Shown: positions 43,006-61,668, numbered from the stretch's first letter. The stretch is 64,000 nucleotides of DNA from a virus (IMGVR_UViG_3300014204_000107:43468-107467), one strand, 5' to 3'. Program-made: numbers and translations. Notes: generated from the letters alone by a model not told the origin.

Positions 43006-43045
43006 AGTGGTATATTATTCCTATATTTGTATATAACAAAATTAA
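43006..43045 (+). promoter_or_regulatory. variant of the recurring TTTGGTAG…TTT…TATAACAA promoter/leader motif
   Basis: Motif similarity; precedes ATG 43054. Confidence 0.35.
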
Positions 43046-43053
43046 CCAAACAA

Positions 43054-43293
43054 ATGAAAGTAAAAGTTGAAGAAACGGGTAAACCCGTATTGATCCCAAT
43101 GTGTGATATGGAACCTGGGCAAATGGCAGTTGTTGTTGACGATATGGCCGGCGACAATAACAGAGACTCTATTATACTGCGCACAGAGAAAGCAATAGCT
43201 GACTTTATGGACCCTTTGCTCGATTGGGAAATAGACTGTGAATTCAAAGTGAGAATCCTTCCCAAAGGCACCAAGATTGAAATTACTGCATAA
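43054..43293 (+). CDS. small protein, tandem paralogue family member 1 (MKVKVEETGKPVLIPM…ILRTEKAIADF…LPKGTKIEITA)
   Basis: Four tandem paralogues. Confidence 0.4.
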   Translation: MKVKVEETGKPVLIPMCDMEPGQMAVVVDDMAGDNNRDSIILRTEKAIADFMDPLLDWEIDCEFKVRILPKGTKIEITA

Positions 43294-43310
43294 CAAATTA
43301 ACCCAAACAA

Positions 43311-43550
43311 ATGAAAGTAAAAATTAAAGGAGAGGCTAAACCCGCATTGATCCCAATGTATGAAATGGTGCGTGGCCAGATCGCTAGAATTGTTGATACG
43401 TGCGCCGATAGTTATAACGGTTCTATCGTATTACGCAGTGAGAAAACTATTGTCGATTTAAAATCTCATCACGTAGATTGGTGCATGACATGCACTTATA
43501 AAGTAGAACTGTTGCCAGCCGGCACGGTCATTGAATTAACCGTTGAATAA
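43311..43550 (+). CDS. tandem paralogue 2
   Basis: Shared MKVKIKGEAKPALIPM…VLRSEKTIVDL…LLPAGTVIELTV. Confidence 0.4.
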   Translation: MKVKIKGEAKPALIPMYEMVRGQIARIVDTCADSYNGSIVLRSEKTIVDLKSHHVDWCMTCTYKVELLPAGTVIELTVE

Positions 43551-43558
43551 AAAAAAAT

Positions 43559-43798
43559 ATGAAAGCAAAAATAGTAAAAGAGGCTGCGCCTGCAGTCATG
43601 AAGATGAATGAACTTAAACCAGGACAGGTCGCTAAGATCAATGACCCTGATATTGGCCCCCACCATATGGGCAAAGTTATACTACGGACACAGCATTCAT
43701 TGGTTGATTTAGATGATCCAATTATAGATTTCTGCTTAGGAGCCGGTTGGGATGTAGAATTGCTCCCCGCTGGGACGGTTATCAAAATTACAGTCTAA
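43559..43798 (+). CDS. tandem paralogue 3
   Basis: Shared motifs. Confidence 0.4.
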   Translation: MKAKIVKEAAPAVMKMNELKPGQVAKINDPDIGPHHMGKVILRTQHSLVDLDDPIIDFCLGAGWDVELLPAGTVIKITV

Positions 43799-43866
43799 CT
43801 GATAAACGCAAGAAAAATGAATACAATCAAAGTTAAAAGACCCAAGGAACTTGTGCGGGACAAAAA

Positions 43867-44064
43867 ATGAAAATTGGCAAATTTGGCCAGATTAAAGAGG
43901 GATTTTATAAAGACCATATTGTATTGCGTGCTGATAGCAGCATATGGATTGATTTGACAGACCCGGAATACAATTGGACTAATGGCATTACATATCCTGT
44001 TGACGCACGGATATTGCTGGTTGGCACCACACTTGAGTTGGTTATTGGTAATAGTGCCATCTAA
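43867..44064 (+). CDS. tandem paralogue 4 (divergent, shorter)
   Basis: HIVLRADSSIWIDL…LLVGTTLELVIG resembles the family C-terminus. Confidence 0.35.
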   Translation: MKIGKFGQIKEGFYKDHIVLRADSSIWIDLTDPEYNWTNGITYPVDARILLVGTTLELVIGNSAI

Positions 44065-59152: not shown

Positions 59153-60687
59153 GTGTAATAACTAAACAAAATCCCTTGCTAGCATTAGATTGCTATAAGC
59201 TCGGACATGGCATGCAGTATGCCCCCGGCACAACTAAAGTTTATTCATATCTTACTGCCAGAAGCGACAAGCAATTTGACAGGTCAGTCTTTTATGGGCT
59301 GCAATATTACTTGAAAGAATACTTTACAATTAAGCTTGAGCCGTGGATGGGTGAAGAACTCATTGAACATTACGGTCTTATTTTAGGACCATGCCCTGAA
59401 CAAATGGCATCTAAGATTCGTGCCCTGTGCCAACTTGGTTACTATCCACTTGAAATTAAAGCAGTTGAAGAAGGTACTGTGATGCCTGTCCGCAATGTTC
59501 TTATGACCATTACTAATACACACCCAGACTTCTATTGGGTGGTTGGTTTCGTTGAGTCCTTGATTCTTAAAGCTTGGTATCCCATTACAGTTGCCAGCTG
59601 CTGCTATGACTACCGTAGGATTGTCGAGCAATACTACAAAGAGACTGTCGATGAAAATATGTATTTCCTAAAAGATTTTACTGTTCATGATTTCGGTTAT
59701 CGCGGTGACTCTTCGGAAGAAGGTGCTGCTTTATCCGGTGTTGCTCACCTGTTATCTTTCCTCGGATCTGATACTGTGCCTGCATTGAAATTTGCTCTTG
59801 AGTATTATAATGCGGACAAAACAAAGCCCATTATGCTTTCAGTTCCTGCCAGCGAGCACTCTGTAATGTGCAGCTTTAGCAGAGAAAATGAACTTGCTGC
59901 TTTCGAAAATATGCTGGATTTATATCCTTCGGGCATTGTTTCAATCGTGTCAGATACGTTTGATGTCTATCGCGTGCTCACAGAGTTTGCCGAAGTGCTA
60001 AAGGCAAGGATCTTAGCCAGAGACGGTAAGGTTGTATTCCGGCCAGACTCAGGCAATCCTGAATATATTATTTGTGGCGATCCTACTGCTCCGGAAGGTT
60101 CCAATGAATGGAAAGGTTGTTTAAGACTGCTCGATGAAAAGTTCGGCAGCACTGTTAATTCCAAAGGATATAAAGTGCTCAACCCAAAGGTTGGTCTTAT
60201 CTATGGCGACGGCATGTACAAAGAAAGGTATATTCGTACACTTGATAGAATGAAAGAACTTGGGTATGCAGCTTCCAATTTAGTAATTGGTGTTGGTGGC
60301 ATCCTCCGCAATCATTCCAGAGATACGTTAGGCTTTGCCTTAAAAGCTACATATGTTGAAGTGAATAATGAACCACGCGAAATTGAAAAGGACCCAGTGA
60401 CAGACCACAAAAAGAAGTCGCACAAGGGACTGCTTGCACTTACTTGGGATGATGAAAACAAGTTTGTAACCCACGATCAGTGCACTCCATTACAGGAGCA
60501 TAACTCATTGCTTAAGACCGTGTTCCATAACGGTACTATCCTGAGGCAGTACACATTAGACCAGCTGAGAAGCCGTATCCGTGGCACATTCCTTGAGTCA
60601 CCAGATAAATGCAGCCATTGTGGTTCAGAAAGGTTTACGAGGCAGGATGACGTTTGGTTCTGCAGTGAATGTGGACATTATTGCTAA
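59149..60687 (+). CDS. nicotinamide phosphoribosyltransferase (NAMPT/NadV) family protein; alternatively the NAMPT-homologous nicotinamide ADPR transferase (Namat)
   Basis: FGYRGDSSEEGAALSGVAHLLSFLGSDTVPAL and SVPASEHSVM motifs; 512 aa. Confidence 0.65.
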   Translation: MSVITKQNPLLALDCYKLGHGMQYAPGTTKVYSYLTARSDKQFDRSVFYGLQYYLKEYFTIKLEPWMGEELIEHYGLILGPCPEQMASKIRALCQLGYYPLEIKAVEEGTVMPVRNVLMTITNTHPDFYWVVGFVESLILKAWYPITVASCCYDYRRIVEQYYKETVDENMYFLKDFTVHDFGYRGDSSEEGAALSGVAHLLSFLGSDTVPALKFALEYYNADKTKPIMLSVPASEHSVMCSFSRENELAAFENMLDLYPSGIVSIVSDTFDVYRVLTEFAEVLKARILARDGKVVFRPDSGNPEYIICGDPTAPEGSNEWKGCLRLLDEKFGSTVNSKGYKVLNPKVGLIYGDGMYKERYIRTLDRMKELGYAASNLVIGVGGILRNHSRDTLGFALKATYVEVNNEPREIEKDPVTDHKKKSHKGLLALTWDDENKFVTHDQCTPLQEHNSLLKTVFHNGTILRQYTLDQLRSRIRGTFLESPDKCSHCGSERFTRQDDVWFCSECGHYC

Positions 60688-60805
60688 CCAATATTTAATT
60701 ACATAAATGCAGTGCTCCTATTGTATATATTGTGCAATAGGAGCATTGTATTTTATTTTGTTAGCTTAATTATTTTCATTATCTTTATAATATAATAAAT
60801 CAATA

Positions 60806-61102
60806 ATGGATAAATTTACATTTAAGACAGTCAAGCCAACTGGTAGGTGGAAGTCTTTCGATAAAGATTATCACAAAATAAAGCTTAATGGTGCTGTATG
60901 TGGAGACATTCTTAAAGAAAATGGAAAATTCTTTATACGGTTTATGAAAATTAAAGAAGACATCATGTCAGACGGCAATGCCAATTGTCCGTGGAAATGG
61001 GTTACTTTAAAAGCATCCCATGCCACTTTACAAGATGCTAAAGACTTTATTGTGGCCAATACAAGCAAAATATTGAATCAAATTAATTTATATACAATCT
61101 AA
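60806..61102 (+). CDS. hypothetical protein
   Basis: ORF. Confidence 0.4.
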   Translation: MDKFTFKTVKPTGRWKSFDKDYHKIKLNGAVCGDILKENGKFFIRFMKIKEDIMSDGNANCPWKWVTLKASHATLQDAKDFIVANTSKILNQINLYTI

Positions 61103-61113
61103 AACAAACAAAA

Positions 61114-61437
61114 ATGATTTTATTAGCAATAATTGGTGGCTTACTGCTTTTTGCAGCACTTGCAGTTTATGGGGCCTTTTCTTGGGGACTTGTATTTATG
61201 AAATTTTATTATTGGTTTTTATTGCCAGTATTCACAACTTTGCCCCACATTACCTTCTGGCATGCGGTGGGGATAATGTTTGTAATCGCCCTATTTGAAA
61301 GGGGTTCTGCGCTTACACTTAATGCTATTAAGAAAGAATATAAAGATAATACTATGGTAGCGATTGGTGCAGTATTAGCACCTTGGATGACATTGCTTGT
61401 TGGATATTTATTCTATATCATATTCATCATACAATAG
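61114..61437 (+). CDS. membrane protein (3 TM)
   Basis: ORF, hydrophobic. Confidence 0.4.
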   Translation: MILLAIIGGLLLFAALAVYGAFSWGLVFMKFYYWFLLPVFTTLPHITFWHAVGIMFVIALFERGSALTLNAIKKEYKDNTMVAIGAVLAPWMTLLVGYLFYIIFIIQ

Positions 61438-61443
61438 TACCTA

Positions 61444-61607
61444 TGAAAGCTGATAAAGCAAAGCAAATAGAATATCTTAACGATAACTTGCGTATAGCCA
61501 AAAAAGAGCTTAAATTAGCTTTCAGGGAACGCAACGACTATAAAATAAAGCTTGCTGAGGCGATGATTAGAGCTACAAATGCAGAAATTAAACGGCTTGC
61601 AACGTAA
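61444..61607 (+). CDS. small coiled-coil protein
   Basis: ORF, internal Met start. Confidence 0.35.
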
Positions 61608-61625
61608 TATAATTGCATTAGAATA

Positions 61626-61668
61626 AATTTGGTAGATAGAGAAATTCTTCCTACCTTTATATTATAAA
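61626..61668 (+). promoter_or_regulatory. recurring promoter/leader motif
   Basis: TTTGGTAGATAGAGAAATTCTTCCTACCTTTATATTATAAACAAACAA before ATG 61681. Confidence 0.45.

What the first reader, a model, noticed from the sequence alone, without database searches (positions are those of the whole stretch)
43006..61668. Recurring ~50-nt promoter/leader motif (at least 13 copies) organising the 43-63 kb half
The motif TTTGGTAG-N11-14-(C)CTACCTTTATTCTATAACAATAAA-N5-15-ATG occurs before genes at 45095, 45715, 47601, 48331, 51024, 52625, 53432, 54779, 55457, 58154 and 61681. Variant copies sit at 43054 and 53844. TTTG followed about 20 nt later by TAccTTTA resembles the Bacteroidota sigma-A -33 TTTG / -7 TAnnTTTG arrangement. 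Conservation extends about 20 nt into the leader (TTCTATAACAATAAA). GGTAG and CTACC form an inverted repeat that could be a regulator-binding palindrome or RNA hairpin. This looks like a single temporal class (for example middle genes) driven by a phage-specific promoter, and it also gives a host-clade hint. Some genes elsewhere (11634, 25667, 58502) have SD-like GGAG, so host assignment stays uncertain.
Basis: seen in the sequence. Interest (0 to 1): 0.6.

Follow-up and report, generated by a model that had tools for sequence, protein, structure and literature searches.

The report
Repeated strong promoter in giant phage
A 19-kb block of an uncultured ~299-kb phage genome carries about 15 copies of one ~75-base promoter-plus-leader cassette built on the Bacteroidota promoter pattern, each in front of a small gene of unknown function; this is an ordinary kind of phage regulatory repeat, but a clean example and a good clue to the host.

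Summary
Ten near-identical copies (matrix score 53-70; best of 20 shuffles 7.6) and five or six weaker variants lie between 42.9 and 61.7 kb. All are intergenic and all but one are on the + strand. Most end 18-27 nt before an ATG.

The core is TTTG-N20-TACCTTTA, which is the Bacteroidota sigma-A -33/-7 layout. If the box sits at -12..-5, transcripts start at the A of ATAACAATAAA and have 14-23-nt A-rich leaders without Shine-Dalgarno sites. One copy predicts a leaderless mRNA.

Conservation goes well beyond the host consensus: GCAT near -48, an A-rich tract, GGTAG, the spacer, CC in the box, and +1..+11. The same cassette occurs in four contigs from related phages whose proteins are only 45-60% identical.

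The genes it fronts are unrelated to each other and have no Pfam match. The GGTAG/CTACC complementarity is real but shows no covariation.

My best reading is a class of strong promoters read by host RNA polymerase, more likely early than middle. It resembles T4 early promoters and PeSL cassettes. I rate it a new member of a known kind, of modest interest. No transcription data were available.

The parts
45037..45083 (+). Strong copy, spacer subtype A (TGGTATAATTTACT). Predicted +1 at 45073. Fronts ORF 45096-45341.
   Evidence: Matrix score 60.2; box end to ATG 27 nt
45656..45702 (+). Strong copy, subtype B (GAGAATTTCTTCC); -33 reads TTAG. Predicted +1 at 45692. Fronts the 327-aa ORF 45715-46698.
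   Evidence: Score 69.3; 27 nt to ATG; a homologous gene in L027 is also motif-driven
48281..48327 (+). Strong copy, subtype B, preceded by a GC-rich hairpin (GCCGGC...GCCGGC). Predicted +1 at 48317. Fronts the 875-aa ORF 48331-50958.
   Evidence: Score 66.0; 18 nt to ATG and upstream hairpin of -21.3 kcal/mol; syntenic copy in L006
50967..51013 (+). Strong copy, subtype B. Predicted +1 at 51003. Fronts the MoxR-like AAA ATPase gene 51024-52514.
   Evidence: Score 56.4; syntenic copy at L006:2800, 39 of 50 nt identical
52589..52635 (+). Strong copy, subtype C. The box is followed by TTAT and then ATG, so the predicted +1 is the A of ATG 52625 (leaderless 51-aa ORF 52625-52780).
   Evidence: Score 60.1; 4 nt to ATG and a strong upstream hairpin of -33.9 kcal/mol; the ORF is called in L053
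53377..53423 (+). Strong copy, subtype A. Predicted +1 at 53413. Fronts the 40-aa ORF 53432-53554.
   Evidence: Score 62.0; 23 nt to ATG
54728..54774 (+). Strong copy, subtype A. Predicted +1 at 54764. Fronts the 58-aa ORF 54779-54955.
   Evidence: Score 53.7; 19 nt to ATG
55399..55445 (+). Strong copy, subtype C; 39 nt are 97% identical to the 52613 copy. Predicted +1 at 55435. Fronts the 61-aa ORF 55457-55642.
   Evidence: Score 69.5; 26 nt to ATG; identity
58103..58149 (+). Strong copy, subtype A; -33 reads TCTTGG. Predicted +1 at 58139. Fronts the 80-aa ORF 58154-58396.
   Evidence: Score 52.9; 19 nt to ATG
61628..61674 (+). Strong copy, subtype B, and the last of the cluster. Predicted +1 at 61664. 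Fronts the 194-aa ORF 61681-62265.
   Evidence: Score 60.9; 21 nt to ATG; no further strong copy in the next 9 kb
42881..42927 (-). The only minus-strand copy (variant). It is followed by a 6-codon ORF and then about 570 nt without an ORF, running into the GAAATTGCAACC repeat array.
   Evidence: Score 24.6; sequence and ORFs
42998..43044 (+). Variant copy (box TATATTTG), divergent from the minus-strand copy. Fronts three tandem paralogous 79-aa ORFs starting at 43054.
   Evidence: Score 18.5; 24 nt to ATG; paralogy
47524..47570 (+). Rearranged variant: box TATATTTA, followed by a degenerate second box CTTACCGTTTA. It lies 45 nt before ATG 47601.
   Evidence: Score 21.3
53845..53891 (+). Variant copy (box TAACTTTA) followed by about 860 nt with no convincing ORF.
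   Evidence: Score 18.0; ORF list
60756..60802 (+). Variant copy (box TATCTTTA) directly after a 20-bp terminator-like hairpin at 60706-60752. Fronts the 98-aa ORF 60806-61102.
   Evidence: Score 19.1; terminator scan; 18 nt to ATG
46759..46805 (+). Weak partial copy (box and ACT only, no -33). It is paired with an inverted box at -46739, which together form a palindrome between two genes.
   Evidence: Score 13.8; listing

Best explanation
The repeat is a family of strong promoters of the Bacteroidota sigma-A type, each fused to a short, A-rich 5' leader without a Shine-Dalgarno site. It lies in a ~299-kb uncultured jumbo phage.

Proposed mechanism (inferred, not shown):
- Host RNA polymerase holoenzyme reads TTTG at -36..-33 and TACCTTTA at -12..-5.
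- An A-rich tract (-45..-37) and GCAT (about -49..-46) act as an upstream enhancer.
- An AAATT/ATAAT block near -22..-18 supplies the AT-rich spacer element seen in Flavobacterium promoters.
- Transcription starts at the A of ATAACAATAAA, giving 14-23-nt unstructured leaders suited to Shine-Dalgarno-independent initiation. In one copy the mRNA is leaderless.

Each copy makes the following one to three small genes a separate, highly expressed transcription unit. The class is confined to one 19-kb block of orphan and auxiliary genes. It is most likely the early, host-polymerase-dependent class. In that respect it resembles T4 early promoters and the PeSL cassettes of T4-type phages.

Shown: the anatomy, copy number, placement, conservation in relatives and fit to the host consensus. 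Inferred: the start sites, the polymerase that reads them, their strength and their timing.
For: - Copies and significance.
- Architecture: TTTG-N20-TAccTTTA in 9 of 10 strong copies. Published consensus is -33 TTTG / -7 TAnnTTTG with the box at -12..-5 and the start site 4-5 nt after it (PMC6847099, PMC9723704, PMC7366714). CC at -10/-9 fits the rule that G is absent there (PMC6847099).
- Placement: 15 of 16 copies on the coding strand and all intergenic. Box end to ATG is 18-27 nt in 11 of 15, so predicted leaders are 14-23 nt. Reported leader lengths are a mode of 23 nt in B. thetaiotaomicron and a median of 24 nt in F. psychrophilum.
- Host signals: few Shine-Dalgarno sites and A-rich leaders; 7 of 14 genome hits are Bacteroidota; the E. 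coli-type promoter scan is not enriched, 62 found against 72.8 expected.
- Purifying selection: the cassette is 74-78% identical over 50 nt in L006 and L027, where the adjacent proteins are 60% and 45% identical. The stretch TACCTTTATTCTATAACAATAAA is identical in L007 and L027.
- The genes served are unrelated to each other and 10 of 10 have no Pfam hit. The same cassette fronts different ORFs in relatives.
- The class is bounded: none in 1-42 kb or in the -10 kb and +6.7 kb flanks, where only generic TTTGGAT...TAtaTTTA sites occur.
- No sigma factor or RNA polymerase gene in the window.
Against: - No transcript data, so start sites, strength and timing are all inferred.
- Position -5 is A in every strong copy, whereas G-5 is nearly invariant in F. 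johnsoniae sigma-A promoters (PMC6847099).
- The extra conserved positions (GCAT, GGTAG, spacer, CC, +1..+11) are not explained by the host consensus and could mean a phage factor is needed.
- Only 64 kb of a ~299-kb genome was readable, plus 16.7 kb of flank. A phage sigma factor, polymerase or activator could be encoded elsewhere.
- The host is not identified. Chlorobiota have similar promoters (bioRxiv 10.1101/172254).
- Two copies (-42903, +53869) have no ORF behind them.
Confidence: 0.7

Rival explanations
1. Factor-dependent (middle-type) promoter class. A phage-encoded activator, sigma-appropriating protein or repressor binds the class-specific positions. Candidates are GGTA at -33..-30 and TACC at -12..-9, whose centres lie 21 bp (two helical turns) apart, and/or GCAT near -48. 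This would switch the whole block on or off together.
For: - Class-specific conservation beyond the host consensus, and A at -5.
- GCA[TA] upstream in 14 of 20 copies against a 13% background.
- Other promoter-like sites in the same genome read TTTGGAT...TAtaTTTA instead, so there are two sequence classes.
- The GGTAG/CTACC complementarity holds in 84% of cells.
Against: - Both host elements are retained at the correct spacing. T4 middle promoters, by contrast, replace the -35 element.
- No candidate DNA-binding regulator was found in the window apart from one weak HTH_8 hit.
- The pairing level equals that of column shuffles.
- Left-arm variants (GGTGA, GTTTG, GGTTG) occur in strong copies.
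Confidence: 0.2
2. Composite terminator-promoter and recombination cassette, analogous to PeSLs. The GGUAG...CUACC stem followed by UUUAUU attenuates read-through from upstream. The roughly 75 nt of shared sequence also serves as a homology patch for shuffling orphan genes between related phages. This extends the best explanation rather than excluding it.
For: - PeSLs have an AT-rich upstream region, a stem-loop that may lie between or overlap the two boxes, and a location among orphan genes (PMC2839356, PMC4122927).
- 5 of 10 copies fold with z of -1.7 or lower, down to -12.1 kcal/mol.
- 5 of 15 copies have a separate strong hairpin just upstream.
- The same cassette fronts unrelated genes in relatives.
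- Copies fall into spacer subtypes, and a near-identical 39-nt pair exists.
- The two L006 copies share at least 30 identical nt that differ from the window consensus.
Against: - Half the copies have no meaningful hairpin.
- There is no covariation.
- Internal and upstream hairpins do not compensate for each other.
- No closely related but distinct genome was available to look for indels flanked by the cassette. All long contigs are the same phage at 99.99-100% identity.
Confidence: 0.3
3. RNA-level signal on polycistronic transcripts. Examples would be an RNase processing site or an operator for a translational repressor that recognises the hairpin and/or AUAACAAUAAA.
For: The +1..+11 stretch is as conserved as the promoter boxes and is identical in diverged relatives. 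T4 RegA and RegB are precedents for coordinated post-transcriptional control of early mRNAs (my own knowledge, not tested here).
Against: - The most conserved positions are exactly the two host promoter elements at their canonical spacing.
- The stems are short and inconsistent.
- The conserved leader can equally be explained as an initial transcribed sequence or an A-rich translation enhancer (PMC6847099).
Confidence: 0.1
4. A miniature mobile element (MITE-like) that has spread through intergenic regions.
For: There are many near-identical copies. Assemblies break at it: L006 begins and ends inside copies.
Against: - 15 of 16 copies share one orientation with the genes, at a fixed 18-27 nt before an ATG.
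- Similarity falls to background outside about -50..+12: 43% and 37% identity in the flanks against 70% in the core.
- There are no terminal inverted repeats or target duplications.
- None occurs in 42 kb of neighbouring genome.
- Copies are conserved at syntenic sites in a relative.
Confidence: 0.03

Closest known systems
Bacteroidota primary-sigma (sigma-A/ABfr) promoters: -33 TTTG / -7 TAnnTTTG
   Same: Both elements are present with a 20-nt spacer. There is no G at -10/-9, an AT-rich block lies near -18/-20, and the predicted leaders are short and A-rich without Shine-Dalgarno sites (PMC6847099, PMC7366714, PMC9723704). Bacteroides phage promoters have been predicted on the same criteria (PMC13139388).
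   Different: A replaces the near-invariant G at -5 in all strong copies. About 45 further positions are conserved that the host consensus does not require, including 11 transcribed nucleotides.
PeSL (promoter-early stem-loop) cassettes of T4-type phages
   Same: Near-consensus host-type strong promoter, AT-rich tract upstream, an inverted repeat lying between or overlapping the boxes, 75-100 nt of conservation, many copies in intergenic spaces of a block rich in orphan genes, and unrelated genes behind each copy (PMC2839356, PMC4122927).
   Different: The boxes are of the Bacteroidota type, not sigma-70. The stem-loop is weak or absent in half the copies. There is no evidence yet for cassette-mediated indels or mini-circles. 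Relationship of this phage to T4-type phages was not established.
Phage T4 early promoters (extended consensus beyond -35/-10)
   Same: A single phage-wide consensus much longer than the host's, read by unmodified host polymerase, driving many small host-takeover genes. This comparison rests on my own knowledge plus the description in PMC2839356.
   Different: Different sigma type and sequence. Here the conservation continues into the transcribed leader.
Huge freshwater Bacteroidetes phages of 293-331 kb that encode bS21 (PMC9723584)
   Same: Genome size (~299 kb), low G+C (about 31-39% across the window) and a predicted Bacteroidota host.
   Different: Membership was not tested, since no bS21 or structural genes lie in the window. 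That paper does not discuss promoters; the word does not occur in it.

Membership tests
Bacteroidota sigma-A (ABfr) promoter | -7 element with T-12, A-11, T-8, T-7, T-6 | tested here: met
   TACCTTTA is invariant in the 10 strong copies. T41, A42 and T45-47 are invariant across all 20 aligned copies.
Bacteroidota sigma-A (ABfr) promoter | G at -5 (TAnnTTTG) | tested here: not met
   A at this position in 10 of 10 strong copies and in all 5 copies from relatives. Only variant 43022 has G. Most other promoter-like sites of this phage also have A.
Bacteroidota sigma-A (ABfr) promoter | No G at -10/-9 (TAHHTTTG) | tested here: met
   CC in all strong copies; C, T or A in the variants; rule from PMC6847099.
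Bacteroidota sigma-A (ABfr) promoter | -33 TTTG about 19-21 nt upstream of the -7 element | tested here: met
   TTTG-N20-TA in 8 of the 10 strong copies and 5 variants. The pattern has 23 matches against 6.3 expected.
Bacteroidota sigma-A (ABfr) promoter | Transcription starts 4-5 nt after the box and depends on host sigma-A holoenzyme | not testable with these tools
   No transcriptome or biochemistry was available. Predicted +1 coordinates are given in 'parts'.
PeSL cassette (T4-type phages) | Near-consensus strong host-type early promoter with an AT-rich region upstream | tested here: met
   See the rows above. The AATAAA tract at -45..-37 is conserved.
PeSL cassette (T4-type phages) | Stable stem-loop within or adjacent to the promoter that acts as a terminator | tested here: inconclusive
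   Internal hairpin energies range from -1.1 to -12.1 kcal/mol, with z of -1.7 or lower in 5 of 10. There is no covariation. A separate strong upstream hairpin is present in 5 of 15 copies.
PeSL cassette (T4-type phages) | Intergenic, clustered in a variable region rich in orphan genes | tested here: met
   10 of 10 downstream genes have no Pfam hit, they are not paralogous, and relatives carry different genes behind the cassette.
PeSL cassette (T4-type phages) | Indels or replacements between close relatives end at cassette copies; mini-circles form | not testable with these tools
   All long contigs recovered are the same phage at 99.99-100% identity.
Miniature mobile element (MITE-like) | Terminal inverted repeats, target-site duplication, insertion in either orientation | tested here: not met
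   One orientation in 15 of 16 copies, a fixed distance to the ATG, and flanks at background identity.
Hairpin promoters of N4/crAss-type virion RNA polymerases | Short perfect stem with a loop of about 3 nt at the start site, and no host -35/-10-like boxes (from my own knowledge) | tested here: not met
   Loops are 9-15 nt, stems are variable or absent, and host-type boxes are present.

The most novel reading that the evidence does not exclude
The cassette may be more than a strong host-type promoter. Three readings remain open. (1) The class-specific positions (GCAT near -48, GGTA/TACC spaced two helical turns apart, A at -5, and the invariant transcribed AUAACAAUAAA) are read by phage-encoded factors that coordinate transcription and translation of the block in a host lacking Shine-Dalgarno sites. 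(2) The cassette is a PeSL-like recombination module that moves orphan genes among Bacteroidota jumbo phages. (3) Two copies fire into ORF-free DNA, and one of these runs into an array of eight GAAATTGCAACC repeats, so they could make non-coding or origin-activating transcripts.
Probability: 0.25. Interest if true: 0.55.

Novelty: new member of a known kind. Interest (0 to 1): 0.3.

Why it matters
- It gives a sequence-based host assignment (Bacteroidota, or at least the Bacteroidota/Chlorobiota group) for an uncultured ~299-kb phage that has been recovered at near-100% identity from several samples.
- It defines a probable early-gene regulon of about 15 transcription units, with nucleotide-level start-site predictions that metatranscriptomes can test.
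- It offers compact, probably very strong promoter-plus-leader parts for genetic tools in Bacteroidota, where strong parts are scarce.
- It shows that the PeSL-style arrangement (a repeated promoter cassette in front of orphan genes) exists outside sigma-70 hosts.
- Practically, these repeats break short-read assemblies. L006 begins and ends inside copies.

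Tried and rejected
- Megablast of 17 kb against GenBank phages: no match.
- Exact 21-mer and degenerate pattern against IMG/VR: no true relatives.
- The search for related loci with the 875-aa protein in IMG/VR: nothing.
- Exact look-up of the 875-aa protein: not on record. 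The NAMPT and AAA proteins did lead to the 299-kb ENA contig.
- Distant homologues on the 363-kb and 135-kb contigs (L001, L003) lack the cassette.
- A second protein search with the AAA ATPase gave one close relative, whose contig has no upstream region.
- Sigma-70 consensus scan: below expectation. The TGGTATAAT found in four spacers is probably incidental.
- RNA hairpin: no covariation and heterogeneous energies.
- I looked for compensation between internal and upstream hairpins and found none.
- Mobile-element reading rejected.
- Tandem gene duplication as the source of the repeat rejected.
- ORF-free region 53.9-54.7 kb: no Rfam hit, z = -1.78, no blastn hit.
- No sigma factor or RNA polymerase gene among 87 ORFs scanned against Pfam.

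Full report
**What is there**

A 68-nt position matrix anchored on TACCTTTA finds ten copies scoring 53-70 bits. The first T of the box is at + 45061, 45680, 48305, 50991, 52613, 53401, 54752, 55423, 58127 and 61652. The best score in 20 shuffled windows was 7.6. Weaker copies score 14-25: -42903, +47548, +60780, +43022, +53869 and +46783.

The literal TTTGGTAG...CTACC string occurs only once, because most copies read TTACC.

**Anatomy**

An ungapped alignment of 20 copies, 15 from the window and 5 from relatives, together with per-column information content, gives the following layout. Numbering assumes the box lies at -12..-5.

| Position | Element |
|---|---|
| about -49..-46 | GCA[TA], present in 14 of 20 copies against a 13% background (p about 7e-9) |
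| -45..-37 | A-rich tract (AAAATAAAT) |
| -36..-29 | TTTGGTAG |
| -28..-13 | Spacer, in three subtypes: A cTGGTATAATTTACT, B GAGAAATTCTTCC, C GTAGAGAAATTATACT |
| -12..-5 | TACCTTTA |
| -4..-1 | TTCT |
| +1..+11 | ATAACAATAAA |

After +11 comes 3-12 nt of A-rich sequence and then the ATG. Mean pairwise identity of the ten strong copies is 70% over -39..+11, against 43% and 37% in the flanks.

**Fit to a known promoter type**

Published work defines the Bacteroidota primary-sigma promoter as -33 TTTG and -7 TAnnTTTG. The box occupies -12..-5, the start site lies 4-5 nt after it, G is absent at -10/-9, and AT-rich blocks lie near -18 and -28 (PMC6847099, PMC9723704, PMC7366714).

The cassette has TTTG, a 20-nt spacer, TA-CC-TTT, and AAATT/ATAAT at about -22..-18. 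The generic pattern TTTG-N19-21-TAnnTTT[GA] occurs 23 times against 6.3 expected, and 13 of those are in 42.9-61.7 kb. The E. coli-type scan is below expectation, 62 found against 72.8 expected.

The one systematic departure is A at -5 instead of the near-invariant G.

**Placement**

Fifteen of 16 copies are co-directional with the genes, and all are intergenic. The distance from box end to ATG is 18-27 nt in 11 of 15 copies. Predicted leaders are therefore 14-23 nt, close to the 23-24-nt mode or median reported for Bacteroides and Flavobacterium.

In the 52613 copy the box is followed by TTAT and then ATG. The predicted +1 is the A of the start codon of a 51-aa ORF that gene callers also call in L053, so this copy predicts a leaderless mRNA.

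Five copies have a strong hairpin just upstream: 43022, 45061, 48305, 52613 and 60780.

**Host signals**

- Only 11 of 106 ORFs have GGAG/GAGG at -20..-4, against a 3.9% background.
- The upstream 25 nt are 45-65% A and 3-19% G, with peaks at -3 and at -12..-14. This is the pattern described for Bacteroidota (PMC6847099).
- A scan of one genome per prokaryotic species with TTTG-N20-TACYTTTA-N4-RTAACAAT returned 14 hits, 7 of them Bacteroidota. From memory, that phylum makes up roughly a tenth of species; I did not test this figure.
- Chlorobiota have similar promoters (bioRxiv 10.1101/172254), so the inference is Bacteroidota or a close ally.

**Genome context**

The 875-aa protein is 100% identical to one on a 299,351-bp JGI contig. 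The NAMPT and AAA proteins lead to a 299,185-bp ENA contig that matches the window at 99.99% identity. The window is therefore the middle of a jumbo phage genome.

The window contains no structural genes, sigma factor or RNA polymerase genes. The extra 10 kb to the left and 6.7 kb to the right hold no strong copies, only generic sites of the form TTTGGAT...TAtaTTTA. The class is thus confined to one 19-kb block out of 80.7 kb examined.

The ten genes tested behind the cassette have no Pfam match and are not paralogous to one another. The block also holds NAMPT, a PRPP-synthetase-like gene, endonuclease VII, a MoxR-type ATPase and a cREC_REC protein.

**Relatives**

No cultured phage is close. 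The cassette does recur in four short metagenome contigs.

- L006 encodes a 60%-identical homologue of the 875-aa protein and carries the cassette at both ends, syntenic with 48305 and 50991.
- L007 and L027 overlap and together hold three copies.
- L023 holds two copies.
- The only gene in L007, L027 or L023 with a homologue in the window is 45% identical, and it too is cassette-driven in both phages. The other genes behind the cassette there are unrelated to window genes.
- TACCTTTATTCTATAACAATAAA is letter-for-letter identical in L007 and L027. Orthologous cassettes are 74-78% identical over 50 nt.

Promoter and leader are therefore under stronger constraint than the proteins. More distant homologues on the 363-kb and 135-kb contigs lack the cassette.

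**The inverted repeat**

GGTAG (-33..-29) and CTACC (-13..-9) are complementary in 84% of alignment cells. Column shuffles give 83.1%, and covariation is not above shuffles. Variants that change the right arm keep the left arm unchanged.

Folding energies range from -1.1 to -12.1 kcal/mol, and five of ten copies have z of -1.7 or lower. The repeat lies upstream of the predicted start, so it would be in RNA only on read-through transcripts.

Some PeSL subclasses also have a stem-loop between or overlapping the two boxes, where it acts as a terminator (PMC2839356). Here the stem is followed by UUUAUU. An attenuator role is therefore possible, but the data do not support it. Copies without an internal hairpin do not consistently have an upstream one. 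A symmetric protein site cannot be excluded.

**Interpretation**

The best-supported reading is a class of strong, host-polymerase-dependent promoters fused to a short translation-friendly leader. Each copy insulates and drives one to three small genes. Because both host elements are intact, early expression is more likely than middle. This is inference only.

The closest described systems are T4 early promoters and PeSL cassettes (PMC2839356, PMC4122927). Host-type -33/-7 promoters have also been predicted in Bacteroides phages (PMC13139388). My literature searches found no description of such an extended consensus in Bacteroidota jumbo phages. The bS21 huge-phage paper, which describes genomes of similar size and host, does not mention promoters.

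I rate it a new member of a known kind, with interest 0.3.

**Limits**

- There are no transcript data.
- Only about 27% of the genome was visible.
- The host is not identified.
- Only eight copies from relatives were available.
- No near-identical but distinct genome was available to test cassette-mediated shuffling.

Noticed in passing
window 41776-42494: Eight direct copies of GAAATTGCAACC on the + strand within about 720 nt (11 matches in the whole window against 0.6 expected). Three sit just before ATGs and five are packed into ORF-free DNA, next to the divergent promoter pair at 42.9-43.0 kb. This looks like an iteron array, either an origin or a regulator-binding region.
   Followed up: partly
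window 42290-42880, minus strand: The only minus-strand cassette copy (box at 42903) is followed by a 6-codon ORF (MKDAVF) and then about 570 nt with no convincing ORF, running into the repeat array. Possibly a non-coding or origin-activating transcript.
   Followed up: partly
window 53880-54740: About 860 nt with no convincing ORF on either strand and 41.5% G+C, directly downstream of variant cassette 53869. No Rfam hit at E up to 1, folding z = -1.78, and no blastn hit in phages. Unexplained.
   Followed up: partly
window 33724, 45341(-), 45394, 54625: A 20-mer family, GAACGTCGAGCAGATCTAAC (4 copies against 0 expected). The pair at 45341-45413 forms an 18-bp perfect-stem hairpin (-40.5 kcal/mol for the local fold) right after the stop codon at 45341. 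The copies at 33724 and 54625 close long ORF-poor gaps; the 45341/45394 pair lies just past the gap at 44064-44907.
   Followed up: partly
window 9771, 11449, 20859, 31046, 40061, 59141, 62419, 63380 (+ strand): AGCAAACAA occurs 9 times against 1.6 expected, 8 of them on the + strand, several directly abutting a start codon (for example 31046-31054 followed by ATG 31055). Possibly a second leader or translation-initiation motif.
   Followed up: no
window 52613-52627: The box TACCTTTA is followed by TTAT and then ATG, so the predicted transcription start falls exactly on the A of the start codon of a 51-aa ORF. This is a candidate leaderless mRNA in a phylum where such mRNAs make up about 4-5% of transcripts.
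   Followed up: partly
window 46739-46805: Two box-containing half-cassettes face each other (AAAGGTAAGTAAAATTTT ... AATTTTTACTTACCTTT), forming a palindrome with arms of about 17 bp between genes 45715-46698 and 46907-47473. Possibly a bidirectional terminator or a scar of recombination between inverted copies.
   Followed up: no
window 33035-33108 and about 420-480: One tRNA with an anticodon loop that ARAGORN could not assign ('tRNA-???', anticodon tt; Rfam tRNA 42.6 bits). A second tRNA-like 3' end (GGTTCGAATCC) lies just before ATG 490 and neither tool called it.
   Followed up: no
window 15752-16006 and 38259-38928: Long arrays of 15-nt tandem repeats inside two paralogous ORFs. Two ORFs in the window match Pfam Pentapeptide repeats with E = 1.5e-73, and these are presumably the same two.
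   Followed up: no
window 57163-60687: An NAD-salvage pair (PRPP-synthetase-like gene and nicotinamide phosphoribosyltransferase) flanks an endonuclease VII gene. Elsewhere in the window there are TROVE/Ro60-like, ADP-ribosylglycohydrolase, arginine decarboxylase and QueE-like genes. All 64 kb is non-structural.
   Followed up: partly
L006:1-35 and L006:2775-2825: This Logan contig begins and ends inside cassette copies that share at least 30 identical nt (TTCCTACTTTTATATGGTAACAATTAGACA). The repeat breaks short-read assemblies. The relative's own copies also resemble each other more than their syntenic partners in the window, which hints at concerted evolution.
   Followed up: partly
L009, L013, L026, L030, L031: Unrelated metagenome contigs share a near-identical promoter-like stretch plus gene start (TTTGCTTCATT..AAAATTT.AGTTACTTTTAAATTGTAACAATTATGAAAATCAAACTTCTAAATCC), present in three copies in L026. 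This is a different repeated Bacteroidota-type element.
   Followed up: no
window 42000-64000 compared with 1-42000: G+C is higher in the cassette-rich half (0.35-0.40) than in most of the first 42 kb (0.26-0.38, mostly about 0.32).
   Followed up: no
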